Part shown: in pieces, positions 54,383-62,721 of the stretch | Layout of the letters: each line of letters opens with the position of its first letter | Position numbering within the stretch: the stretch's first letter is position 1 | Source of the DNA: a virus | Strand: one strand, 5' to 3' | Length of the DNA stretch: 64,000 nucleotides | IMG/VR virus record: IMGVR_UViG_3300044653_000098 | Span: 64,001 to 128,000 of that record | The notes under the pieces: model-generated | Told to the model about the DNA's origin: nothing | The model's database searches: none | What the model saw: only the letters and a program-made list of their open reading frames with translations | Made by a program: the position numbers and the translations under genes

Positions 54383-55048
54383 TTGCTGATCGCGATGCCG
54401 GTAGACAGCCACTCCCCCGGTGATCTCGCTCACTCCCTAGATAGCTGGAGCCGGGTGCGGCCGCCGGGCGGCGAGCCTCTGGAGTTCATCTTCGCGGTCG
54501 AGCCTGACCCCGACATCGTCCCGGAGGTCATCAACCGCTACGCCGGGACGTTCAGCTGGAAGGTGGACATCTTCCAGAACGAGAACCGGCTGGGCCCGGA
54601 CCTCAACCCCGCCCACGTGCTGGAGCTGGCGTTCCGGCGCTCGCCTCAGGTGGTGTTCGCTGACGCCAGCGCGATCGTGTCCACCGACGTTGCCGAGTAC
54701 CTGAGCTGGGCCCTGGAGTGGTTCGAGCACGATGCTCAGTGCCTGGCGGTCTGCACCTTCGAGGAGCACGGCACCTCGCTCAACCCGTCTCTCGCGCGCA
54801 CCGACTTCGCGTTCACCCCGGCCTGCTTCGGGATGTGGGGAAACCGGTGGGACCGGATGCGGCACTGGGATTTCAAGGCCACGGATGACTTCCGGTGGAC
54901 CGACTACGTCCAGCAGCGCCACCTCATGCCCACCGGCCGGTATGTGATCAAGCCCTGGCAGTCCCGCTCGCAGCCGATCCGCGGACCGCGGTCCGCCAGC
55001 TTCGAGCAGGAGGTCGAGCCTCAGCCGACCTACAGCCTGACGGCCTGA
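54383..55048 (+). CDS. Glycosyltransferase-like protein (degenerate paralog of 52136)
   Basis: FGMWGNRW and P..SRS motifs shared with 52136; DxD not evident. Confidence 0.6.
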   Translation: MLIAMPVDSHSPGDLAHSLDSWSRVRPPGGEPLEFIFAVEPDPDIVPEVINRYAGTFSWKVDIFQNENRLGPDLNPAHVLELAFRRSPQVVFADASAIVSTDVAEYLSWALEWFEHDAQCLAVCTFEEHGTSLNPSLARTDFAFTPACFGMWGNRWDRMRHWDFKATDDFRWTDYVQQRHLMPTGRYVIKPWQSRSQPIRGPRSASFEQEVEPQPTYSLTA

Positions 55049-55073
55049 TGAAGCCCTGCACCGTAACAGGTGC

Positions 55074-55310
55074 ATGCCAAGAGGATGGGATCCCGCGTAC
55101 GACCCGTTCGGCGGGTACCGGGCAACCCGGTCGTTCCTGGGTGTCCGGATCAGCGACAAGACTTTCTCAGACGACTCGATCGACAAGATCCTGAAGGACG
55201 GCAAGGACCCGAAGAAGGTGCTCGGCAAAAAGATGAAAGAGCTGAGCATCAAGGACAAGCAGAAGCTGATCAGGCGTATCGAGGCCCGTGAGAAAAAGAG
55301 AAACCAGTGA
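55074..55310 (+). CDS. Small basic hypothetical protein
   Basis: Lys-rich ORF with GTAACA-N5-ATG context. Confidence 0.6.
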   Translation: MPRGWDPAYDPFGGYRATRSFLGVRISDKTFSDDSIDKILKDGKDPKKVLGKKMKELSIKDKQKLIRRIEAREKKRNQ

Positions 55311-55342
55311 GGAAGAGATGATCTTACGCAGGGGGAGACCCA

Positions 55343-55426
55343 GCCCCCGTAGCCCAAAACACCAAGAGGCAGAGGCGCCGCTTTAAAACCGGTCGAGTGT
55401 GGGTTCGAGCCCCACCGGGGGCACCA
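55343..55426 (+). tRNA. tRNA-Leu(TAA), enlarged D-loop
   Basis: GCCCCCG/CGGGGGC acceptor, loop TTTAAAA, TTCGAG T-loop, encoded CCA. Confidence 0.75.
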
Positions 55427-55459
55427 GATGGAAGTTCTGCAAGATGGTCCGGAAAAAGA

Positions 55460-55489
55460 GTTGACACGGGTCTACCGGCATCGTAAGGT
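55460..55489 (+). promoter_or_regulatory. sigma70 promoter of the tRNA array with overlapping operator
   Basis: TTGACA(55461)-N17-TAAGGT(55484); ATG 6 nt downstream (leaderless). Confidence 0.85.
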
Positions 55490-55495
55490 GGGTAC

Positions 55496-55594
55496 ATGAT
55501 GCAACGCAGGTACTCAGAGCAGCGGAATCAGGATGGGCATTTTGCCATCCCGTGCCCCGCCATGCTGGGGACCAGCGAGGTGGCTTCTGGGTAG
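55496..55594 (+). CDS. Leader peptide (32 aa) MMQRRYSEQRNQDGHFAIPCPAMLGTSEVASG
   Basis: ATG at the predicted +1; the 3' end overlaps the antiterminator strand. Confidence 0.7.
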   Translation: MMQRRYSEQRNQDGHFAIPCPAMLGTSEVASG

Positions 55595-55654
55595 AGGAAG
55601 ATCAAGCTCGGAAGCCGCCCGCAGGGACAGAAGCCCTCGCGGGCGGTTTGCGTT
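55575..55654 (+). terminator. Attenuator: antiterminator (55575-55592/55606-55622) versus terminator (55612-55622/55639-55649)
   Basis: Mutually exclusive pairings sharing AAGCCGCCCGC; the terminator ends in TTTGCGTT. Confidence 0.7.
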
Positions 55655-55666
55655 ACAGCTGAACAT

Positions 55667-55737
55667 GGGGAGCAGGCGACGGCTGCCGGCGGGATTCCAA
55701 ACCCCGCGACGAGTGGGTTCGACTCCTACGCACCCTG
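55667..55737 (+). tRNA. tRNA-Trp(CCA), atypical D-arm
   Basis: Loop TTCCAAA; T-arm GTGGG-TTCGACT-CCTAC. Confidence 0.65.
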
Positions 55738-55738
55738 C

Positions 55739-55834
55739 GGAGCACCACCCTGAAGGCTGGGGTGAACGTGCCAGCAGATTGATAACTCAACAGCGTGAGC
55801 ATCGCCCAGGGCGCCATCCCTGGGCACAAGCTCC
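55739..55834 (+). ncRNA. Unassigned multibranch structured RNA
   Basis: GGAGC/GCTCC closing stem enclosing hairpins CACCCT/GGGGTG, TTGA/TCAA and GCCCAGGG/CCCTGGGC. Confidence 0.5.
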
Positions 55835-55896
55835 CCCGTCCGCGCCTGCGCTCAGGTCTTCCTGGGTCACCATCGGGCACGGCCGGGGGAGATCAT

Positions 55897-55968
55897 GGGG
55901 ATGAGAAGCTGAGGTAGCGACCGCGCCCTGCAAGCGTTGGTGACTCGGTTCGATTCCGAGCATCTCCA
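55897..55968 (+). tRNA. tRNA-Ala(TGC), C33, atypical D-arm
   Basis: GGGGATG/CATCTCC-A with G3:U70; loop CCTGCAA. Confidence 0.7.
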
Positions 55969-56047
55969 CGAGACCGCCGCTTGGGGAACAGCTGGGATGG
56001 CCTGGTACCGGGCGTTACCCCCAGACCTGAAACGGAGCGGCGGCAGA

Positions 56048-56122
56048 CTGGGTATAGCTCAGGTTGGTCAGAGCGCGCGGTCCGGGGCCGCGAGGCCGCT
56101 GGTTCAAATCCAGCTACTCAGA
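56048..56122 (+). tRNA. tRNA-Pro(CGG), C33
   Basis: CGCGG-TCCGGGG-CCGCG. Confidence 0.85.
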
Positions 56123-56124
56123 CC

Positions 56125-56254
56125 GGGGGGAGATGCGGGTTCGAGTCCCGCCCTGTCCGTGAAAACTCTCCGCGGTGGCCGATCTGCAGGCGGCTGGCCG
56201 GCCAGGGCCCTGGTCAGGAGAGGGACAGGTAGTCCAATTGGCAGGACGCCCCCT
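56125..56254 (+). ncRNA. Circularly permuted tRNA-like RNA (3' half before 5' half)
   Basis: GGGGG-AGAT-T arm-CCTGTCC-G (56125-56159), then GGACAGG-TA-D arm-G-CCCCC (56223-56254). Confidence 0.85.
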
Positions 56255-56259
56255 ACATT

Positions 56260-56379
56260 TTCTGGTGCGGCTTACCACGATCCGGCTGGGGTTCGGGAGA
56301 AGAACGTCCGGGAGGTCGAGCGCAATACGCGGGCGCAGTTCCGCGCAAACGGCGGCCGGATGCTGTGGGAGCACCAGAA
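56260..56379 (+). ncRNA. Unassigned long-stem structured RNA
   Basis: Nested stems TTCTGGTGC/GCACCAGAA, CCACG/TGTGG and ATCCGGCTG/CGGCCGGAT. Confidence 0.55.
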
Positions 56380-56382
56380 CAA

Positions 56383-56457
56383 CGGGATGTCGCGTAAGGG
56401 TTAGCGCGCCTGGTTTGGGACCAGGCAGTCAAGGTTCGAGTCCTTGTATCCCGACCA
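56383..56457 (+). tRNA. tRNA-Pro(TGG)
   Basis: CCTGG-TTTGGGA-CCAGG; encoded CCA. Confidence 0.9.
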
Positions 56458-56524
56458 GCGGCCAGGATGTTCACCGTGTCCTGGTGCAGCGGAGGCTCGT
56501 TAGGGAGCACCCAACGGTGACGGC

Positions 56525-56597
56525 GGGTCTGTAGCTCAGACGGGAGAGCGGTCCCCTGAAAAGGGACAGGTGGAGGATTCGATCGCCTCCGGGCCCA
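56525..56597 (+). tRNA. tRNA-Phe(GAA)
   Basis: GTCCC-CTGAAAA-GGGAC. Confidence 0.85.
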
Positions 56598-56615
56598 CGC
56601 TGTAGCAGGTAGCCC

Positions 56616-56687
56616 GCCGCACTAACACAATGGCTAGTGTGTCTGTCTTCCAAGCAGAGAATGCGAGTTCGATTCTCGCGTGCGGCT
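56616..56687 (+). tRNA. tRNA-Gly(TCC)
   Basis: TCTGT-CTTCCAA-GCAGA; U73. Confidence 0.9.
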
Positions 56688-56792
56688 CGGTGACGAGCAG
56701 AGCTGAAACCTCTGTGATCGCGCAAGTGGCTGGCAGGCCACGGCCGGGCAGGCTCTGGGGGACTGCCATCTCGCAGGGGTGCCCGGTTCTGA

Positions 56793-56865
56793 GTGCCGCT
56801 AGCACAACGGTTACTGCACCTGACTCTTAATCAGGGGGTTCTCGGTTCGAGTCCGAGGCGGCGCA
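56793..56865 (+). tRNA. tRNA-Lys(CTT)
   Basis: CCTGA-CTCTTAA-TCAGG. Confidence 0.9.
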
Positions 56866-56866
56866 C

Positions 56867-56942
56867 GGGCGAGTACGTCCAACTGGCAGAGCGGCCGGCC
56901 TCAAAATCCGCGCGGTTGCGGGTTCGACTCCCGCCTCGCCTA
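56867..56942 (+). tRNA. tRNA-Leu(CAA), short variable arm
   Basis: Loop CTCAAAA, imperfect anticodon stem, canonical T-arm. Confidence 0.75.
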
Positions 56943-56947
56943 CACGA

Positions 56948-57021
56948 TGGAGCATGGTGGTAATTCGGTATCCCACTGGGCCCTGAACCCAGGGATCCAG
57001 GTTCGAGTCCTGGTGCTCCAG
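56948..57021 (+). tRNA. tRNA-Gln(CTG), C33
   Basis: CTGGG-CCCTGAA-CCCAG; U1-A72, G73. Confidence 0.85.
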
Positions 57022-57023
57022 CT

Positions 57024-57116
57024 AGTCCTGGCCCGGCTTTCCCTGAATTGACAGGCGACCCCGAAGCGTGACGGCGCATAAGGGGACGGGCACGACGGTG
57101 CGGTCCGGCCGGGACT
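57024..57116 (+). ncRNA. Unassigned multibranch structured RNA
   Basis: AGTCCTGGCC/GGCCGGGACT closing stem with three internal hairpins, two carrying GACG loops. Confidence 0.5.
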
Positions 57117-57120
57117 TCAT

Positions 57121-57195
57121 GCCTCCGTAGCTCAATGGTGGAGCAGTGCCCCCGTAAGGCACAGGCCGCAGGGTCAGTACCTGCCGGAGGCTCCA
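57121..57195 (+). tRNA. tRNA-Thr(CGT), C33, non-canonical T-loop
   Basis: GTGCC-CCCGTAA-GGCAC; T-loop GTCAGTA; encoded CCA. Confidence 0.8.
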
Positions 57196-57196
57196 T

Positions 57197-57285
57197 GCGC
57201 TCGTGGCGGAATAGGTATACGCGCTAGCCCGAGATGCTAGTGCTCCGCGAGGGGCGTGCGGGTTCGACTCCCGCCGAGCGCACCA
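57197..57285 (+). tRNA. tRNA-Leu(GAG), C33
   Basis: CTAGC-CCGAGAT-GCTAG, long variable arm, encoded CCA. Confidence 0.85.
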
Positions 57286-57286
57286 C

Positions 57287-57355
57287 GCCGCCGCGCACGG
57301 CTTGCGGCCCGGCTCCTGTAAAGCTGGAGGTCCGGATCGGCACCGGACGGCGGCT
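57287..57355 (+). tRNA. tRNA-Thr(TGT), C33, degenerate D/T loops
   Basis: GCCGCCG/CGGCGGC-T acceptor; CGGCT-CCTGTAA-AGCTG. Confidence 0.65.
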
Positions 57356-57359
57356 CTGC

Positions 57360-57433
57360 TCCGGGATCGGGTTGCCGGCATCCCGACGCGGCTTTGGACC
57401 GCGGTCACGCTGGTTCGAGTCCAGCTCCCGGAA
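57360..57433 (+). tRNA. tRNA-Gln(TTG)
   Basis: CGCGG-CTTTGGA-CCGCG. Confidence 0.8.
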
Positions 57434-57437
57434 CGAT

Positions 57438-57509
57438 GCCTGCCTAGTGATAACGGCAGCACGCGTCCTTGGTAAGGACGTAGACGGAGTTCAATTCTCC
57501 GGGCAGGCT
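57438..57509 (+). tRNA. tRNA-Thr(GGT)
   Basis: CGTCC-TTGGTAA-GGACG. Confidence 0.9.
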
Positions 57510-57513
57510 CTGT

Positions 57514-57586
57514 GTGGACGTGGCGAAGCTGGTATCGCATCTGCTTGCCAAGCAGAAGATCGCGGGTTCGATCCCCGTCGTCCACT
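57514..57586 (+). tRNA. tRNA-Gly(GCC)
   Basis: TCTGC-TTGCCAA-GCAGA. Confidence 0.9.
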
Positions 57587-57683
57587 CTCCGGCTGCGGTG
57601 TTCACCGTGCCAATGCGAAGGGCCCGACAGGTTCGGTAACCCGGATGGATAAGTCTGCTAGGCCAGCAGGCAAACGGTTGAAT

Positions 57684-57767
57684 GTCCCGGTGGCGTAATT
57701 GGTAGCCGCGCACGGCTCAGACCCGTGTGCCTTAACGGGCGTGAGGGTTCGACCCCCTCCTGGGACA
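57684..57767 (+). tRNA. tRNA-Leu(CAG)
   Basis: CACGG-CTCAGAC-CCGTG, long variable arm. Confidence 0.9.
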
Positions 57768-57773
57768 CGATCG

Positions 57774-57853
57774 GAACTCCCTCCCGCCGCGGTTCGCGAA
57801 CGCGGTGATCAGGAGAGCTAAGGGTCTGGCCCCGCGCCCGGCCGGAGGAGTTC
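57774..57853 (+). ncRNA. Unassigned structured RNA
   Basis: GAACTCC/GGAGTTC closing stem; CGCCGCG/CGCGGTG and TCTGGCC/GGCCGGA hairpins. Confidence 0.5.
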
Positions 57854-57887
57854 ACAGTCAATGCGCATGGCAAGCGGGGCGTGACAT

Positions 57888-57961
57888 GGTCTGCGACCAG
57901 CTGGAGGTTGGAGGCGGCCTGCAAAGCCGTCAGCAGCGGGGTTCGATTCCCCGGCGGGCCT
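57888..57961 (+). tRNA. tRNA-Cys(GCA)
   Basis: GCGGC-CTGCAAA-GCCGT; U73. Confidence 0.8.
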
Positions 57962-57965
57962 CTAA

Positions 57966-58163
57966 CAGGCTCCGTCTGCGTGGATTTCGCAGTTCGGGCC
58001 GTTCCCCGGCGGGATGGCATTGGCGGAGGCTGCGGCCGCGCTCAGGAGGGTGCCGAGTGCAATACCCGCGGCGAGAAGGGCTGCTAGAAGTCGGTAGCGC
58101 ATGGTCTTCACCTTTCTGCTGGTAGCTGTCACGGTACGCCTAAGTGATTGTTCTGCACAGGCA
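57966..58163 (+). ncRNA. Unassigned ~200-nt structured RNA
   Basis: GATGGC/GCTGTC and TGGCGGAG/TTTCTGCTG stems enclosing GCCGCG/CGCGGC and GAAGG/TCTTC branches. Confidence 0.45.
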
Positions 58164-58164
58164 T

Positions 58165-58249
58165 GGAGCGGTGGCCGAGCGGCCTATGGCGGTGTCCTGC
58201 TAAGGCACTCACCGGAAACGGTGCGCGGGTTCAAATCCCGCTCGCTCCT
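58165..58249 (+). tRNA. tRNA-Ser(GCT)
   Basis: GTGTC-CTGCTAA-GGCAC, long variable arm. Confidence 0.9.
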
Positions 58250-58252
58250 CTT

Positions 58253-58337
58253 GGAAGGTAGCGCCGAGGATGGCGAACTGGTCCCGAAAACCAGGCCGGG
58301 GTGAGTAGCCCCGAGGGTTCGATTCCTTTACCTTCCT
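58253..58337 (+). tRNA. tRNA-Ser(CGA), C33
   Basis: CTGGT-CCCGAAA-ACCAG, long variable arm. Confidence 0.8.
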
Positions 58338-58341
58338 CTGA

Positions 58342-58415
58342 CCGCCCCGGCTCAGCCGGTGAAGAGGCCCGTCTGATAAGCGGGTAGTCGCATGGTTCAA
58401 CTCCATGGGGGCGGA
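58342..58415 (+). tRNA. tRNA-Ile(GAT)
   Basis: CCCGT-CTGATAA-GCGGG. Confidence 0.8.
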
Positions 58416-58416
58416 C

Positions 58417-58491
58417 TGGCCAGTAGCACAAAGGTAAGTGCACCCGTCTTATAAGCGGGCGATACGGAGTCAAGACCCGGCTGGCCTACCA
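58417..58491 (+). tRNA. tRNA-Ile(TAT), aberrant T-arm
   Basis: CCCGT-CTTATAA-GCGGG; encoded CCA. Confidence 0.7.
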
Positions 58492-58564
58492 GCTCCCCGC
58501 GCCCGACTGGACGGGCACCGGACTTTTAATCCGGACTGACTGGGTTCGATTCCTTGGGGGAGCA
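58492..58564 (+). tRNA. tRNA-Lys(TTT)
   Basis: CCGGA-CTTTTAA-TCCGG. Confidence 0.85.
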
Positions 58565-58569
58565 CGCAA

Positions 58570-58641
58570 GCGTCGCTGGTGTAAAGGAAGCGCGCTCGCC
58601 TTCTAAGCGAGATGGTCTCAGTTCGATTCTGGGGCGACGCA
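58570..58641 (+). tRNA. tRNA-Arg(TCT)
   Basis: CTCGC-CTTCTAA-GCGAG. Confidence 0.9.
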
Positions 58642-58642
58642 C

Positions 58643-58713
58643 GGCTCGTTAGGTTAACGGCAGACCGCCTGGTTCTCAGCCAGGGAGCAGGGGTTCAATT
58701 CCCCTACGAGCTA
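58643..58713 (+). tRNA. tRNA-Glu(CTC)
   Basis: CCTGG-TTCTCAG-CCAGG. Confidence 0.9.
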
Positions 58714-58717
58714 CTTT

Positions 58718-58795
58718 GCCGCTGTTACTCTGATGGTAAGGGGTAGCCGGGTTTTCACCCCGGACACGACGCGGGTTCGAGTCCCGTCAGCGGCT
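58718..58795 (+). tRNA. tRNA-Glu(TTC)
   Basis: CCGGG-TTTTCAC-CCCGG. Confidence 0.8.
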
Positions 58796-58796
58796 C

Positions 58797-58870
58797 TGCG
58801 GACAGCAGCACCGGTCGTGCTGAACGGTCTCATAAGCCGAGATAGCTGGGTTCGACTCCCAGGTCCGCAA
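58797..58870 (+). tRNA. tRNA-Met(CAT) (elongator or Ile2 type)
   Basis: CGGT-CTCATAA-GCCG; TGCGGAC/GTCCGCA acceptor. Confidence 0.75.
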
Positions 58871-58883
58871 CTGTTCAATCTGA

Positions 58884-58957
58884 TCCGGCGTAGCTCAGTC
58901 TGGTAGAGCAGCCGCCCGTTAAGCGGAAGCGCGCAGGTTCGAGCCCTGCCGCCGGAG
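58884..58957 (+). tRNA. tRNA-Asn(GTT), C33
   Basis: CCGC-CCGTTAA-GCGG; U1-A72, G73. Confidence 0.85.
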
Positions 58958-58969
58958 CGCAGTAATCAT

Positions 58970-59042
58970 GGTTCTGTAGCTCAGTGGTCAGAGCGTCCGC
59001 CTGTCGAGCGGAGGGCCGCGGGTTCGACTCCCGTCAGGACCG
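58970..59042 (+). tRNA. tRNA-Asp(GTC)
   Basis: TCCGC-CTGTCGA-GCGGA; G73. Confidence 0.9.
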
Positions 59043-59053
59043 CGCATGATAAA

Positions 59054-59128
59054 GGGTGCTTAGCTCAGCGGAAGAGCAGCAGCACGACACGCTGAAGGCC
59101 GCAGGTTCGATCCCTGCAGCGCCCACCA
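59054..59128 (+). tRNA. tRNA-Val(GAC), C33
   Basis: CAGC-ACGACAC-GCTG; encoded CCA. Confidence 0.85.
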
Positions 59129-59216
59129 TGCGCGTTACGCCGGAGAACGGCCGCCCAATACGCGCAGCAGGGGACTGTCGTACAGGCGGAGGAAGTCGGC
59201 TTGGCGGTCCCAACTA

Positions 59217-59288
59217 GCGTCCATCGTTCAACGGATAGGACGGCAGGCTACGGACCTGCTGATGGGAGTTCGAGTCTTCCTGGACGCA
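59217..59288 (+). tRNA. tRNA-Arg(ACG)
   Basis: GCAGG-CTACGGA-CCTGC. Confidence 0.9.
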
Positions 59289-59289
59289 C

Positions 59290-59361
59290 GGGCCGTTAGC
59301 TCAGCGGCAGAGCGGCGCCCCCACACGGCGCGCAGCGGAGGTTCGAGTCCTCCATGGCCCA
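59290..59361 (+). tRNA. tRNA-Val(CAC), C33
   Basis: GCGCC-CCCACAC-GGCGC. Confidence 0.85.
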
Positions 59362-59363
59362 CT

Positions 59364-59434
59364 GAGGGCGAACCGCATGGCGCGGAGGCTGGTTGTGAGC
59401 CAGTCAGCAGCGGGTTCGAATCCCGTCGTCCTCC
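59364..59434 (+). tRNA. tRNA-His(GTG), no encoded G-1
   Basis: GCTGG-TTGTGAG-CCAGT; C73. Confidence 0.75.
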
Positions 59435-59520
59435 CTTTCCCCCGGTCGTAGGGCCGCACCCGGCAGGGTGATCCGGAGAGCCTGTGTCCATCAGGGCGGG
59501 GATCAAAAACTCCGGGCTAT

Positions 59521-59601
59521 GGCGGAGTGACCCGAGATGGCATGGGAGCGGTCTGTAAAACCGTCGCTTCGGCACGGCTGGTTCGATTCCAGCGTCCGCC
59601 A
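59521..59601 (+). tRNA. tRNA-Tyr(GTA)
   Basis: GCGGT-CTGTAAA-ACCGT, GC-TTCG-GC variable arm. Confidence 0.85.
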
Positions 59602-59656
59602 CTCTCCGGGTGCAGGAGCCACACGGCTTGGCCGCCGTGCCTGCCCCGGAGCGTAA

Positions 59657-59728
59657 GCGCCTATCGTTCAGTGGATAGGATCGCGGCCCCCGAAGCCGCA
59701 GACGCTGGTTCGAGTCCAGCTGGGCGCA
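59657..59728 (+). tRNA. tRNA-Arg(CCG), C33
   Basis: GCGGC-CCCCGAA-GCCGC. Confidence 0.85.
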
Positions 59729-59729
59729 C

Positions 59730-59804
59730 TGGCCTGAAGCTCAATGGACGAGCGGTCGCCCCCTAAGCGAACGGCTGCGGGTTCGAGTCCCGTCAGGCCG
59801 GCCA
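59730..59804 (+). tRNA. tRNA-Arg(CCT), C33
   Basis: TCGC-CCCCTAA-GCGA; encoded CCA. Confidence 0.8.
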
Positions 59805-60016
59805 CATCGATGCTCACGCTGCGAGTTGTCCTGGTATCCGGTTCGGCGTTTCTTGCCCGTCGTCCTATCCGGCCCGGCCCCGTCCAAGCGCTCCCGCGGA
59901 GATAGCTGTTGTGGCGGGGCCCGGTCGTATGATAGAGTTGCTTTCGTAACCGCCCGGACCTGCCTATCAGTGCGACGCAGCCGGGCGGACCGCTTTTCCG
60001 GGCCGATGAGCCGGCC

Positions 60017-60511
60017 ATGGACCTGTCCGGCGCCACCCTGGCTGAGCTGAACGCCGAGCTGATCACGCGCACCGCCCCGGTCGAGTCGCTCGACCGGCTG
60101 TTTGCGTTGCCTGATTGGGTGACCGACCCGGATCTGTGCAACTCCTACGAGGTGCTGGTCGCCCGGCTCCGGAGAGAGACCGACCACCTGCCCCTGAACA
60201 CGCTCCAGCAGATGAGGATCGAGCGGATCGTCTTCAACTACATCGTGCTGAAGTTCAGGGAGTCTCACGCGGGCAGCGACCACCAGTTCACGGACCACCT
60301 CAAGGACTGGAACACCTACTGGGCCTCGATCACCCGGGAGTTCGACGCGGTGCTGCGCGCCTGGCAGCCCAAAGAGCAGGACGCGATCATGCACATGGTG
60401 AAGCTGGCCGTCGAAGAGGTGATCGCGACGATCGAGGACACCGGGGTGCGCAATGACCTCGTGCGGAGGTTCCCCGACACCTTCAAGCGCATGGGCCTGA
60501 TCAGCGCCTGA
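60017..60511 (+). CDS. Hypothetical helical protein (possible terminase small subunit)
   Basis: Strong coding signal; first gene of the morphogenesis block. Function guessed from size and position only. Confidence 0.55.
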   Translation: MDLSGATLAELNAELITRTAPVESLDRLFALPDWVTDPDLCNSYEVLVARLRRETDHLPLNTLQQMRIERIVFNYIVLKFRESHAGSDHQFTDHLKDWNTYWASITREFDAVLRAWQPKEQDAIMHMVKLAVEEVIATIEDTGVRNDLVRRFPDTFKRMGLISA

Positions 60512-60524
60512 CGAAGTATCGTGC

Positions 60525-61103
60525 GTGGCTGGCTACCTGGACAAGCTCCTGGGACTCGCCGCGGTGCGGGTGCCGGAGTACCAGCGCCGGAGCGCGAAGG
60601 GCGGCGCGGTAAGCGTCTCCAGCTATACCCGCATGGGCCGCGACGCGATGCAGTCCCACCTGACCTCCTCGCACGGGATGGACGCCCGCGGGCTGGGAAA
60701 GGACTTCAGCCACCCGACCAGCCTCGCCGCTTGGCACGGCGCCGACCACGTCGCCCGCGGCGACGGGCTGGACCACCAGCACCCCGAGGGCATCGCGGCG
60801 CACGCCGACCACGCCGTGGCTCATGAGAGCGAGCATGGCCACGGGCTCGGGGCTGTGGCCGGCCACATGGCGGTCTGGGAGGCCCCTGCTATCGCCCACC
60901 GTGAGGTGCGCCGGACCGTCGACCGCCAGACGCGCCGCCGGCTCTACCGGCTGGACAAGCACCGCGGTGGCTCGAAGAAGCGCCCAGGAGGCGGCTTCGC
61001 GTCCGGTGTGGCGTCAGGAGCGTCGGGCTCCTCCTCCGGTGGGGGCGGAGGATCGGGTGGCTCAGGGAGCAGCTCAGGCTCGTCTGGAGGCAACAGCCAG
61101 TGA
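60525..61103 (+). CDS. Hypothetical His/Gly-rich virion-associated protein
   Basis: VRVPEYQRR..KGGAVSVSSYTR motif typical of phage head-module proteins. Confidence 0.55.
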   Translation: MAGYLDKLLGLAAVRVPEYQRRSAKGGAVSVSSYTRMGRDAMQSHLTSSHGMDARGLGKDFSHPTSLAAWHGADHVARGDGLDHQHPEGIAAHADHAVAHESEHGHGLGAVAGHMAVWEAPAIAHREVRRTVDRQTRRRLYRLDKHRGGSKKRPGGGFASGVASGASGSSSGGGGGSGGSGSSSGSSGGNSQ

Positions 61104-62104
61104 CGTACCTGGAGAGGCTCCTCGCGCTCACGCCGCAGACGCCCGAGGCGTCGACCGTGCCCAAGCCCATCCACCCTGGTGGCCCTGGTCTCTGGCACCA
61201 TAAGAAATGGATGGCGCCACCCTACGTGGAGCACGTCGCCCAGGCTCTGATGCGCCGGGGCAAGTCCGAGTCCGAGGCGTACCACCTGGCGGTCGGATTG
61301 ATGCACTCATGGAGTGCAGGTCACGACGGTCATGGACACCACGTGCACGCCGACGTCAAGGCGGCGGCCGCCGCCAACCTCGCCAAGTGGGAGGAGCTGC
61401 GCGGCCGCGCCCACGCCAGCCACTTGGCCAAGAAGGCAAAGGGGCACAGCAAGAGCCATCACGATCTCGCGGCGAGCGCTGCGTGGGACGAGATCGGTGA
61501 GCTGATGGTGGAGTTCGCCCGGACCGCCCCGCTCGACATCATGGAGCTGGCCTCGGGCCCGACCTACTTCTACGACGCTTCGATGCTCAAGGGAGGATCG
61601 GAGGCCAGCGCGCCGGGCGCCAAGCGGATCACCAGCAACCAGCTGCGCCAGAATCCGAGCCAGACAGTTGCCGCCAACCCCCCGCTACCGCCCGGCGTCA
61701 CGCTGCCCACCCCGGCCGAGCTGAACCAGCTCGCCGCGAATATCTCCTCGGCCGGCCTGCCCGAGAGCGACCTCATCCGTGGCGCCCGCGATCACGCCAG
61801 GGCAGCAGCCATGAAGATGCAGGCTAACCAGCCGGTCGACGCGCTGCACATGCTGCGCGCGTGCCAGGCGGGGATCGTCTCAGCCCACCGGGAGTACAAC
61901 GGCAGTCTCATCCCGGTGGCCAATGTGTTCAGCGCGCGGCTGGCGCCTGCTGAAGCAGCCTCGGCGCGGGCCGAGATGTTCGAGGGACTGAAGACCCGCG
62001 ACACCTTCCGCCAGCTGGCTACGCAGTGTGCGCAGTTCATCGACCGGATCCGCCGTCACATCTTCCATGGTTTGTATAACCACATGGCCGAGGCAAGGTT
62101 CTAG
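61100..62104 (+). CDS. Hypothetical head-module protein
   Basis: PPYVEHVAQAL..RG.SES.AY..AV...W and A.WEELR motifs resemble actinophage head-region proteins. Confidence 0.6.
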   Translation: MTYLERLLALTPQTPEASTVPKPIHPGGPGLWHHKKWMAPPYVEHVAQALMRRGKSESEAYHLAVGLMHSWSAGHDGHGHHVHADVKAAAAANLAKWEELRGRAHASHLAKKAKGHSKSHHDLAASAAWDEIGELMVEFARTAPLDIMELASGPTYFYDASMLKGGSEASAPGAKRITSNQLRQNPSQTVAANPPLPPGVTLPTPAELNQLAANISSAGLPESDLIRGARDHARAAAMKMQANQPVDALHMLRACQAGIVSAHREYNGSLIPVANVFSARLAPAEAASARAEMFEGLKTRDTFRQLATQCAQFIDRIRRHIFHGLYNHMAEARF

Positions 62105-62721
62105 TGGACAAGGTCACCCGCCTGCTGCAGCTCGCTGCACAGGACATCAGCCCGTCGAGCACCATGATCTACCTGCAGGCCCCGCCAGCGCTGTTTCCTG
62201 GTGAGGTGATCGATAAGCCCGGCCACCTCACCGTGGTGTATCTGGGCAAGGTCGGGCAGGCCGAGTTCACCACCGCCTGCGAGCGGGCGAAGTCCGCGGC
62301 CGGCGCGGTGCCGCCGATCCACGCCACGGTTGGCGGCCTTGGCTCGTTCGAGCCGACGGAGAACTCCGACGGCAAGAAGGTCTACTACTGCCCCGTCTAC
62401 GGCGACGGCATTCACTGGCTGCGTGCGCTGCTGGCCGACCTCGCCGCGCCGAACGCGCTGCCGTTCGTCCCGCACATCACCCTGGCCTACGCGGACGAGG
62501 GCGATGACCCCCCGCCTCCGGTCACCAGCGGCCGGCTGTGCTTCACCCAGCTGTACGTCGCCCGCGGCGCGCAGATCTGCGCCTACCCGCTGAAAGGCGG
62601 CCACGAGCCGCACGGTTCCGGTCAGCACATGCGGGACCGGCGGCCGGGCGAGGCTCCGCTGAGCCGGATCGACGCTGTGGTGGAGCTGGCCGACAAGGTG
62701 GCGCCGGGATGGCGTACCTAA
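62104..62721 (+). CDS. 2H phosphoesterase (2'-5' RNA ligase/Acb1-like)
   Basis: Two HxT motifs: GHLTVVYLG and PHITLAY. Confidence 0.85.
   Translation: MDKVTRLLQLAAQDISPSSTMIYLQAPPALFPGEVIDKPGHLTVVYLGKVGQAEFTTACERAKSAAGAVPPIHATVGGLGSFEPTENSDGKKVYYCPVYGDGIHWLRALLADLAAPNALPFVPHITLAYADEGDDPPPPVTSGRLCFTQLYVARGAQICAYPLKGGHEPHGSGQHMRDRRPGEAPLSRIDAVVELADKVAPGWRT

What the first reader, a model, noticed from the sequence alone, without database searches (positions are those of the whole stretch)
56125..56254. Circularly permuted, anticodon-less tRNA gene
Seen: a perfect 3' half (GGGGG-AGAT-GCGGG TTCGAGT CCCGC-CCTGTCC-G) precedes a perfect 5' half (GGACAGG-TA-GTCC AATTGGCA GGAC-G-CCCCC). A 63-nt structured linker (CTCTCC/GGAGAG stem) joins them across the acceptor end. 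All four stems pair and the break falls in the anticodon loop. Known: permuted tRNAs occur in some algae and archaea; bacterial YrlA Y RNAs share this topology but have a long Ro60-binding stem, here only 6 bp. Inference: after RNase P and 3' trimming it would be a two-piece tRNA that mimics an anticodon-cleaved tRNA, serving as a decoy, a ligase substrate or a chargeable non-decoding carrier.
Basis: partly seen in the sequence, partly recalled or inferred. Interest (0 to 1): 0.85.

Follow-up and report, generated by a model that had tools for sequence, protein, structure and literature searches.

The report
Anticodon-less tRNA mimic in phage tRNA operon
A large uncultured phage carries, among its 30-odd tRNA genes, a small RNA gene built like a tRNA turned inside out and lacking an anticodon. 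It follows the design of bacterial YrlA Y RNAs but lacks their Ro60 docking site and has no Ro60 gene nearby, so it is an unusual variant of a known kind of tRNA mimic.

Summary
Window 56125-56253 (+) encodes a flawless circularly permuted cloverleaf. It has a 5-6 bp anticodon stem with open ends, a 4-nt variable loop, a T arm, a 7-bp acceptor stem closed by a 63-nt hairpin, and a D arm. All tRNA tertiary-contact bases are present; no anticodon loop is encoded.

It lies in the tRNA operon of a 142-kb, 67% GC uncultured phage. Its first base abuts the 3' end of tRNA-Pro.

One related phage keeps the whole ~255-nt module, but behind a different tRNA-Pro. Every stem substitution preserves pairing.

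The layout is that of YrlA Y RNAs, including the RNase P-cleaved, CCA-tailed Mycobacterium smegmatis YrlA. Membership fails: 30 bits against a 69-bit cut-off, no GNCGAA Ro60 motif, and no TROVE or DUF2828 gene.

It is not a decoding permuted tRNA, a tmRNA, an attP site or a protein-coding stretch.

My best reading is a Ro60-independent tRNA-mimic RNA matured by tRNA-processing enzymes, partner unknown. A neutral rearrangement relic is not excluded.

This scan found YrlA-like mimics before in other phages, always beside Ro60-like genes; this one has none. No expression data could be obtained.

The parts
55461..55489 (+). Putative promoter of the tRNA operon (TTGACA-N17-TAAGGT)
   Evidence: Read. 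The relative L002 has TTGACA-N17-TATGGT at the same place. The consensus scanner did not call it, so this is inference only.
56048..56124 (+). tRNA-Pro(CGG); its 3' end directly abuts the element and would define the element's 5' end
   Evidence: ARAGORN; Rfam tRNA 53.6 bits at 56048-56122. In L002 the module abuts tRNA-Pro(UGG) instead.
56125..56134 (+). 3' strand of the anticodon-like stem (GGGGGG) plus the 4-nt variable loop AGAU
   Evidence: L002 has five G.
56135..56151 (+). T arm GCGGG/UUCGAGU/CCCGC
   Evidence: It is identical to the YrlA consensus T arm. L002 has a C-to-U change that turns G-C into G-U.
56152..56159 (+). Acceptor 3' strand CCUGUCC plus discriminator G; no CCA is encoded (UGA follows)
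56160..56222 (+). 63-nt linker closing the acceptor end: a 7-nt bulge (with the discriminator), the 6-bp stem CUCUCC/GGAGAG, and two apical hairpins
   Evidence: Folds. It is 62/63 identical in L002, and the one change turns U-G into C-G.
56223..56229 (+). Acceptor 5' strand GGACAGG (A3-U70); the predicted RNase P site is 5' of G56223
   Evidence: The RNase P site is inferred from the M. smegmatis YrlA precedent.
56230..56248 (+). U8 A9, D arm GUCC/AAUUGGCA/GGAC, G26
   Evidence: L002 differs by one D-loop base.
56249..56253 (+). 5' strand of the anticodon-like stem (CCCCC)
   Evidence: L002 has CCUCC, which keeps the pair as G-U.
56254..56261 (+). Variable single-stranded junction; no anticodon loop
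   Evidence: Only 4/8 bases are identical to L002 and there is a 1-nt indel.
56262..56377 (+). Domain 2: a conserved long bulged hairpin with outer stem CUGGUGC/GCACCAG, a 14-bp inner helix with a 2-nt bulge, and a branched apex
   Evidence: 94% identical in L002. The inner helix keeps 14 bp in L002 through four substitutions that shift its register. MFE z = -2.25 in the window and -1.65 in L002. No Rfam match.
56383..56457 (+). tRNA-Pro(UGG); RNase P cleavage at its 5' end would release the module's 3' end
   Evidence: The processing step is an inference.

Best explanation
This is a real, selected non-coding RNA gene of about 255 nt, co-transcribed with the phage's tRNAs.

Domain 1 (56125-56253) is a high-fidelity tRNA body in YrlA-type topology. 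Its ends sit on the anticodon side, its acceptor end is closed by a hairpin, and it has no anticodon loop. Domain 2 (56262-56377) is a long bulged hairpin attached where the anticodon loop would be.

Inferred maturation:
1. 3' processing of the abutting tRNA-Pro makes the 5' end.
2. RNase P cleavage at the next tRNA makes the 3' end.
3. RNase P probably also cuts 5' of G56223, because a 7-bp acceptor is stacked on a 5-bp T stem.
4. The linker would then be trimmed and CCA added, as shown for M. smegmatis YrlA.
5. The product would be a two-piece tRNA body that still carries domain 2.

It cannot decode, and by the known identity rules it is unlikely to be aminoacylated.

Most likely function (inferred): a Y-RNA-like modular adaptor or decoy. 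The tRNA body engages a tRNA-binding host or phage factor through the elbow or the acceptor end. Domain 2 binds a second partner or stabilises the RNA. This would work without a phage Ro60.

What is shown: the structure, its uniqueness in the genome, its operon position, its conservation with pairing-preserving changes in one relative, and the absence of Ro60-type partners. What is not shown: expression, cleavage and any partner.
For: - **Structure and tertiary bases.**
- **Uniqueness.** It is the only strict descriptor hit in 142 kb, with none in 60 simulated genomes.
- **Non-coding setting.** The stretch 55311-60016 has no high-GC3 gene call and is packed with tRNAs.
- **Conservation in relative L002.** The whole module is kept at 93.5%. 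By segment: 3' half 94%, linker 98%, 5' half 94%, domain 2 94%. The nine plain spacers of the array are 58-93% and the junction is 50%.
- **Pairing-preserving change.** All 7 substitutions in predicted pairs keep pairing and none breaks it. By my own estimate p <= 0.01 even if half of random changes were tolerated. In domain 2 four clustered substitutions keep a 14-bp helix by a register shift.
- **Not a protein.** Two separate 1-nt indels rule out a conserved reading frame.
- **Position kept.** The module sits behind tRNA-Pro(CGG) here and behind tRNA-Pro(UGG) in L002. In both it directly abuts a tRNA 3' end (...GACC|GGGGG).
- **No recent local origin.** No tRNA of the array resembles the halves beyond the generic T arm.
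- **YrlA model.** It aligns the core from T arm to D arm. This is the model's best hit in the genome, at 30.2 bits.
Against: - Only two closely related genomes carry the module. Their flanking genes are 91-93% identical, so the conservation is only modestly above background. There is no true double-sided covariation in domain 1.
- There is no expression evidence.
- Folding energy is not significantly below shuffles for domain 1.
- No partner protein was identified.
- The closing helix next to G+1 and the lack of an RCCA 3' tail may make RNase P cleavage inefficient.
- tRNA arrays rearrange often, and the YrlA model also scores 25-40 bits on tRNA-tRNA junctions. A permuted arrangement can therefore arise without function.
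Confidence: 0.5

Rival explanations
1. It is a neutral relic of tRNA-gene rearrangement. Two tandem copies of one tRNA recombined in their anticodon loops, or an excised circle re-inserted. That left 3' half - spacer - 5' half. The element is transcribed passively with the operon and has no function of its own.
For: - tRNA arrays are mosaic. Between the two phages several tRNAs are replaced (67-78% identity) and the module or tRNA-Pro(UGG) has changed place.
- In Mycobacterium phage Myrna, a Lys-Lys tRNA pair and a tRNA-Asp followed by a stray 5'-half-like piece give YrlA-model scores of 31.7 and 40.3 bits.
- The two carriers are close relatives, so the conservation could be mostly shared ancestry.
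Against: - Both breakpoints fall exactly at the ends of the anticodon stem.
- Every helix is perfect and all tertiary bases are intact.
- The former spacer forms a helix stacked directly on the acceptor stem. At 98% it is the best-conserved non-tRNA stretch of the array.
- All 7 stem substitutions are pairing-preserving.
- No parental tRNA is present in the array.
- Direct abutment to a tRNA 3' end is kept after relocation.
Confidence: 0.25
2. It is a canonical YrlA-type Y RNA that works with the host's Ro60 (Rsr). The phage has simply not kept its own Ro60 gene.
For: - The module order is the same as in YrlA: V loop, T arm, closed acceptor, D arm.
- The T arm is identical to the YrlA consensus.
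- The host is probably an actinobacterium, a group in which Rsr and YrlA are common (PMC4201824).
- Domain 2 is a long bulged helix. It contains GUCGAGCG, one mismatch from the motif GNCGAAN0-1G.
Against: - The score is 30.2 bits against the 69-bit gathering score.
- The motif is absent on the 5' side, where the YrlA model places it; that position is occupied by tRNA-Pro.
- The near-motif in domain 2 is on the wrong strand and side, and it degrades further in L002, where it reads GUCGAGCA.
- D-stem bases that are nearly invariant in YrlA differ: GUCC/GGAC here against GCUC/GAGC.
- No TROVE or DUF2828 gene is present. The same TROVE search does detect Myrna's Ro60.
Confidence: 0.1
3. The tRNA-like part is only a processing handle. 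RNase P and RNase Z recognition of the mimic releases and stabilises domain 2, which is the functional small RNA. This would resemble the way MALAT1 uses mascRNA.
For: - Domain 2 is conserved and structured, with a compensated helix.
- The module sits between RNase P substrates.
- tRNA-like 3'-end processing signals are known (10.1101/312249).
Against: Flanking genuine tRNAs already provide processing sites, so a permuted mimic with a complete D arm and anticodon stem is not needed for release. The mimic is as conserved as domain 2.
Confidence: 0.1
4. It is a true permuted tRNA gene, as in Cyanidioschyzon merolae. The transcript is circularised and reopened at the acceptor end to give a decoding tRNA.
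For: The 3' half precedes the 5' half, and all four stems are present.
Against: - No 7-nt anticodon loop can be assembled. The bases after CCCCC are UACAUUUU here and UCUAGUU in L002, which is the most variable part of the module. They lack U33 in register and continue into a 116-nt hairpin.
- The 5' side is tRNA-Pro.
- By my own knowledge, bacteria lack the splicing endonuclease that recognises the bulge-helix-bulge motif.
- The array already appears to cover all 20 amino acids once the atypical Ala, Trp and Tyr candidates are counted.
Confidence: 0.03
5. It is a two-piece (permuted) tmRNA, an attP core derived from a host tRNA, or a protein-coding stretch.
For: - A permuted tmRNA has the same gene order.
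- attP sites often carry a tRNA 3' half.
- A 155-codon ORF (55937-56404) spans the element.
Against: - tmRNA: the element has A3-U70 rather than G3:U70, its discriminator is G with no CCA, there is no stop-terminated tag frame in domain 2, and no tmRNA model hits it.
- attP: the genome has no tyrosine or serine integrase, and an attP would not carry the matching 5' half.
- Protein: no high-GC3 gene is called, and two 1-nt indels separate the window from L002.
Confidence: 0.02

Closest known systems
YrlA (Y RNA-like A; Rfam RF02553), especially Mycobacterium smegmatis YrlA (Chen et al. 2014, PMC4201824; structure in Wang et al. 2018, 10.1101/312249)
   Same: [quoted passage not shown]
- The same tertiary bases are present, including the alternative A15-U48 Levitt pair.
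- The T arm is identical to the consensus.
- The design is modular, with a second domain at the anticodon end.
- M. smegmatis YrlA also has a 7-bp acceptor and is cut by RNase P and given CCA.
- Y RNAs are sometimes encoded next to tRNAs.
   Different: - There is no Ro60-binding helix or GNCGAA motif, and no rsr/TROVE gene within 4 kb or anywhere in the phage.
- It scores 30 bits against the 69-bit cut-off.
- The D stem differs from the nearly invariant YrlA D stem.
- The 5' end is fused to a tRNA rather than paired with the 3' end.
- The second domain is a 3'-only appended hairpin.
- The acceptor closure is a 63-nt branched hairpin.
Phage 'handle' RNAs beside DUF2828-type Ro60-like genes
   Same: They are permuted or sealed tRNA mimics interleaved with phage tRNA genes.
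   Different: The ACAGCAA / CNGCAA handle is absent from the module, and no DUF2828 or TROVE gene is present.
Permuted tRNA genes of Cyanidioschyzon merolae and some archaea
   Same: The 3' half is encoded upstream of the 5' half and joined across the acceptor end by a linker.
   Different: Those genes encode the complete tRNA, including the anticodon loop, and are matured into decoding tRNAs through a circular intermediate. Here no anticodon loop exists.
Two-piece (permuted) tmRNA
   Same: The gene order is the same: T arm and acceptor 3' strand, an intervening segment, the acceptor 5' strand, then a long 3' domain.
   Different: It has a full D arm and an anticodon-type stem, A3-U70 instead of G3:U70, and no tag reading frame. 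ARAGORN and Rfam give no hit.
Stable RNAs of unknown function in the phage T4 tRNA gene cluster (species 1 and 2 RNAs; recalled from memory, not checked here)
   Same: They are non-tRNA structured RNAs co-transcribed with phage tRNAs and processed by the tRNA machinery.
   Different: As far as I recall they are not permuted tRNA bodies. No sequence comparison was made.

Membership tests
YrlA (RF02553) | tRNA-like domain in the order V loop - T arm - closed acceptor-like stem-loop - D arm, with ends on the anticodon side | tested here: met
YrlA (RF02553) | Covariance-model score at or above the Rfam gathering score (69 bits) | tested here: not met
   The element scores 30.2 bits. tRNA-tRNA junctions reach 24.7 bits in this genome and 31.7-40.3 bits in phage Myrna. 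A score of 30 bits therefore shows topology only.
YrlA (RF02553) | Ro60-binding helix formed by the 5' and 3' ends, with GNCGAAN0-1G on the 5' strand | tested here: not met
   There is no such motif in or next to the element. The 5' flank is the acceptor strand of tRNA-Pro.
YrlA (RF02553) | Encoded within about 4 kb of a Ro60/Rsr (TROVE) gene on the same strand | tested here: not met
   The six-frame TROVE and DUF2828 searches were empty at E <= 1 in G000 (CheckV 100% complete) and in the relative. Positive control: Myrna's Ro60 was found at 82 bits. The two largest unassigned proteins are gp32-like and FtsK-like.
YrlA (RF02553) | Nearly invariant T-stem and D-stem sequences | tested here: inconclusive
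   The T stem GCGGG/CCCGC matches the consensus. The D stem GUCC/GGAC differs from GCUC/GAGC at two pairs.
Permuted tRNA gene (decoding) | All tRNA parts are encoded, including a 7-nt anticodon loop that can be restored by joining the transcript ends | tested here: not met
   No loop can be assembled, and the junction is variable and indel-bearing.
Permuted tRNA gene (decoding) | Splicing endonuclease and ligase pathway in the host | not testable with these tools
   The host is unknown. The phage has no RtcB or Rnl ligase.
Two-piece tmRNA | G3:U70 alanine identity pair, A73-CCA, and a tag reading frame ending in a stop | tested here: not met
   The element has A3-U70 and G73 followed by UGA. 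Domain 2 has no in-frame stop that is conserved between the two phages. ARAGORN and Rfam give no hit.
Phage handle RNAs with DUF2828 Ro60-like protein (this scan's notes) | A 7-8 bp closing stem followed by ACAGCAA / CNGCAA, next to a DUF2828-vWA gene | tested here: not met
   No ACAGCAA occurs in 55000-60100, no CNGCAA occurs in the module, and there is no DUF2828 hit.

The most novel reading that the evidence does not exclude
This would be a Ro60-independent class of phage tRNA mimic. After RNase P cleavage, linker trimming and CCA addition it becomes a two-piece, anticodon-less, non-chargeable tRNA body that carries an effector hairpin. The phage would use it to soak up or redirect a host factor that recognises the tRNA elbow or acceptor end. 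Examples are a defence toxin that targets tRNA 3' ends or a tRNA-processing or surveillance enzyme. The decoy would thereby protect the phage's own tRNA set.
Probability: 0.12. Interest if true: 0.8.

Novelty: new variant of a known kind. Interest (0 to 1): 0.45.

Why it matters
YrlA-type tRNA mimics have so far been defined by their partnership with Ro60, and what their tRNA-like half binds is still unknown. This mimic keeps the tRNA half in near-perfect form but has swapped the Ro60 handle for another hairpin, and it sits in a phage with no Ro60-like gene. That would separate the two halves functionally. It offers a clean bait for finding the factor that recognises the tRNA-like module. It also adds to the picture that phage tRNA operons carry non-decoding tRNA look-alikes, probably as part of the phage-host conflict over tRNA.

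Tried and rejected
**Searches that found nothing or were inconclusive**
- Rfam at gathering thresholds finds only tRNAs in the window.
- The 1.1-kb E-value search missed the YrlA alignment because of filters. It appears only in a 281-nt search.
- A control on four adjacent tRNAs gave no YrlA hit. Myrna's array and this genome's tRNA junctions did, so I do not count the hit as membership.
- BLAST of the module against 50,697 phage records gave only T-arm-sized matches.
- Exact-pattern scans were run for the T arm plus acceptor, the D arm, and domain 2. They covered viral contigs, metagenome contigs and species genomes.
  - The only true homologue found is the L002 contig.
  - L005 and L045-L054 hold ordinary tRNAs, or the motif in unrelated sequence.
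  - Some of those are tRNA-Ala genes with a GGGCAGG/CCUGUCC acceptor, from which the element differs by A3.
- Relatives were sought through the clamp loader and the 334-aa protein family.
  - L010 has the same array, but its contig ends at tRNA-Gln(CUG), before the module's position.
  - The other loci have no array.
- The genome search does not draw 'relatives' for a virus.
- No YrlA was found within about 1.5 kb of Myrna's Ro60 at E <= 0.01, so I had no phage YrlA as a positive control.

**Readings rejected**
- tmRNA
- attP
- protein-coding stretch
- decoding permuted tRNA
- recent duplication of a tRNA from this array

**Other negatives**
- The phage has no CCA-adding enzyme gene.
- The promoter/terminator scanner found nothing specific to the module.

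Full report
**Setting**

The window is bases 64001-128000 of a 141.7-kb IMG/VR virus record, rated 100% complete by CheckV. It is about 67% G+C.

The genes around the finding are phage genes:
- replication: a family A DNA polymerase, a DnaB-like helicase, RecA, the sliding clamp and the clamp loader;
- sugar modification;
- downstream: a terminase, a Mu-type portal and a major capsid protein.

A 679-aa FtsK-like protein clusters with Actinomycetota proteins. The host is therefore probably an actinobacterium; this is an inference.

From 55311 to 60016 my ORF screen calls no gene with high third-position G+C. The stretch holds 30 ARAGORN tRNAs on the + strand, one more seen only by Rfam, and several atypical candidates. 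The finding lies near the 5' end of this operon.

**The observation**

The order is:
1. the 3' strand of a 5-6 bp anticodon-type stem;
2. a 4-nt variable loop;
3. a canonical T arm;
4. the 7-nt acceptor 3' strand and discriminator G;
5. a 63-nt linker;
6. the complementary acceptor 5' strand;
7. U8-A9, a 4-bp D stem with an 8-nt loop, and G26;
8. the 5' strand of the anticodon-type stem.

Every helix is Watson-Crick in the window. The bases that build the tRNA elbow and core are all present: U8, A14, A21, G18-G19, U54-U55-C56, A58, G53-C61 and an A15-U48 Levitt pair.

ViennaRNA returns this permuted cloverleaf as both the MFE and the centroid. This holds for the element alone and for the 258-nt module.

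The folding energy is unremarkable against shuffles (z = -1.1) because the region is G+C-rich. I therefore tested the geometry with a descriptor. The element is the only strict hit on either strand of the 142-kb genome. Sixty first-order-Markov simulated genomes gave no strict hit and 0.18 relaxed hits per genome.

1. The first base of the element abuts tRNA-Pro(CGG). The Rfam match ends at 56122 and is followed by CC. No 5' strand is therefore available for a terminal helix.

2. After the last paired C comes an 8-nt junction. A 116-nt hairpin follows (56262-56377). It has the outer stem CUGGUGC/GCACCAG, a 14-bp inner helix with a 2-nt bulge, and a branched apex. It ends 5 nt before tRNA-Pro(UGG).

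3. No anticodon loop is encoded.

**Conservation**

One relative exists in IMG/VR: L002/L008/L009, whose clamp loader is 91% identical. It carries the whole module at 93.5% identity.

Identity by segment:

| Segment | Identity to L002 |
|---|---|
| 3' half | 94% |
| Linker | 98% |
| 5' half | 94% |
| Junction | 50%, with an indel |
| Domain 2 | 94% |
| Nine plain spacers of the array | 58-93% |
| tRNAs of the array | 67-100% |

Neighbouring protein genes are 91-93% identical. The excess conservation is therefore real but modest.

The pattern of change is more telling. Of 19 differences, 7 fall in predicted pairs. All 7 keep pairing (G-C to G-U, U-G to C-G and the like), and none breaks a pair. 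In domain 2, three adjacent changes on the 5' strand and one on the 3' strand convert one 14-bp register into another 14-bp register.

Two separate 1-nt indels exclude a conserved reading frame, despite the ORF at 55937-56404.

The module's place differs between the two phages:
- Window: Pro(CGG) | module | Pro(UGG) | Phe.
- Relative: Pro(CGG) | spacer | Pro(UGG) | module | Phe.

In both it follows a tRNA-Pro 3' end directly (...GACC then GGGGG). This suggests that tRNA 3' processing defines its 5' end; that is an inference.

**Comparison with known families**

*YrlA.* The Rfam YrlA model aligns the core from the T arm through the closed acceptor to the D arm. The score is 30.2 bits (E = 7e-5 in a 281-nt search), far below the 69-bit gathering score.
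- It is the best YrlA-model hit in the genome.
- A control stretch of four adjacent tRNAs gave none.
- But tRNA-tRNA junctions reach 24.7 bits here, and 31.7 and 40.3 bits in Mycobacterium phage Myrna. Chen et al. warned of exactly this artefact.
- The score therefore confirms topology, not membership.

The other defining YrlA features fail:
- The GNCGAAN0-1G Ro60 motif is absent.
- The 5' flank is a tRNA.
- No TROVE gene exists in this phage or its relative. The same search finds Myrna's Ro60 at 82 bits.

*Handle RNAs.* Earlier notes of this scan describe phage tRNA mimics that carry an ACAGCAA handle beside DUF2828-type Ro60-like genes. I tested both features and neither is present.

*Related enzymes.* The phage has no RtcB, Rnl-type RNA ligase or CCA-adding enzyme.

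*Other readings.* tmRNA, attP, protein-coding and decoding permuted-tRNA readings each fail a direct test.

*Origin.* No tRNA of the array looks like a parent. The T arm plus acceptor 3' strand occurs verbatim in ordinary tRNAs of unrelated organisms. Among them are tRNA-Ala genes with the acceptor GGGCAGG/CCUGUCC. The element has A3 where those have G3. It also has G73 where the archaeal tRNA-Ala genes I read have A73. By the textbook identity rules it would therefore not be an AlaRS substrate.

**Mechanism**

The structure and its operon position are shown. The rest is inferred from how tRNA operons are processed and from M. smegmatis YrlA. That RNA has a 7-bp acceptor, is cut by RNase P in vitro and in vivo, and has its 5' fragment trimmed and CCA-tailed (PMC4201824; 10.1101/312249).

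I expect release from the polycistronic precursor by 3' processing of tRNA-Pro(CGG) and by RNase P at tRNA-Pro(UGG). Cleavage 5' of G56223 and removal of the linker are possible. The result would be a nicked or sealed tRNA body with domain 2 at the anticodon end.

It cannot decode. It lacks the identity elements of the anticodon-independent synthetases. The modular design argues for an adaptor or decoy role, with the tRNA body and domain 2 binding different partners. I put this at about 0.5. A neutral rearrangement relic gets 0.25, and host-Rsr-dependent YrlA and a pure processing handle get about 0.1 each.

**Limits**

- Only two close relatives carry the module.
- The next relative's contig (L010) stops short of the locus.
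- There is no double-sided covariation in the tRNA-like domain.

**Verdict**

This is a new variant of a known kind, a YrlA-style tRNA mimic without a Ro60 handle or partner, and it is of moderate interest.

Noticed in passing
window 55897-55968 (+): Unannotated tRNA-Ala(UGC)-like gene. The acceptor GGGGAUG/CAUCUCC has G3:U70, followed by A73. The T arm is canonical, the D arm is reduced and the anticodon stem is irregular. Rfam tRNA scores only 18.9 bits, with a weak overlapping permuted-tmRNA hit. ARAGORN misses it. It is 100% identical in the relative. It would supply the otherwise missing Ala tRNA.
   Followed up: partly
window ~59523-59606 (+): Unannotated tRNA-Tyr(GUA)-like gene with a long variable arm, in the 221-nt gap between tRNA-His and tRNA-Arg(CCG). 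Relative L010 has an ARAGORN-called tRNA-Tyr at the same position.
   Followed up: partly
window 55343-55428 (+); L002 15629-15721: Odd tRNA-like gene upstream of the operon promoter. Its acceptor is GCCCCCG/CGGGGGC and it encodes ACCA. Its anticodon region is irregular around CUUUAAAAC. In the relative, ARAGORN calls a tRNA with a 4-base anticodon (aaac) and a long extra arm. It may be a suppressor or frameshift-type tRNA.
   Followed up: no
window 55668-55736 (+): Degenerate tRNA-Trp(CCA)-like sequence (Rfam tRNA-Sec model 23.5 bits). The relative has a normal tRNA-Trp at this place, and the two are only 71% identical.
   Followed up: no
window 61100-62721 (+): A 334-aa protein of no known family is followed by a 205-aa LigT-like 2H phosphoesterase (PF13563/PF02834). 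In relatives the two are fused into one protein of about 500 aa. The N-terminal ~110 aa of the 334-aa protein also occurs fused to HK97 prohead proteases and DUF6582. This may be a capsid-targeted RNA-end or cyclic-nucleotide phosphodiesterase. It lies 2.3 kb past the tRNA array.
   Followed up: partly
window ~57990-58103 (-): A small minus-strand ORF of about 38 codons lies inside a 202-nt gap of the tRNA array. It has a good ribosome-binding site (AAAGGTGA, then ATG) and a hydrophobic, signal-peptide-like N-terminus (read by eye).
   Followed up: no
L007 (Mycobacterium phage Myrna) 23368-23430: Directly after tRNA-Asp lies a stray tRNA 5'-half-like piece: an acceptor strand complementary to the 3' strand of tRNA-Asp, followed by a GCUC/AGUGGUA/GAGC D arm. 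It scores 40.3 bits on the YrlA model. Myrna's Ro60 gene is 36 kb away, and no YrlA was found within 1.5 kb of it.
   Followed up: partly
window 56048-59804 vs L008: The two related phages have mosaic tRNA arrays. Some tRNAs are 97-100% identical. Others of the same anticodon are only 67-78% identical: Gln-UUG, His, Lys-CUU, Ser-CGA and Gly-GCC. This points to gene-by-gene replacement.
   Followed up: no
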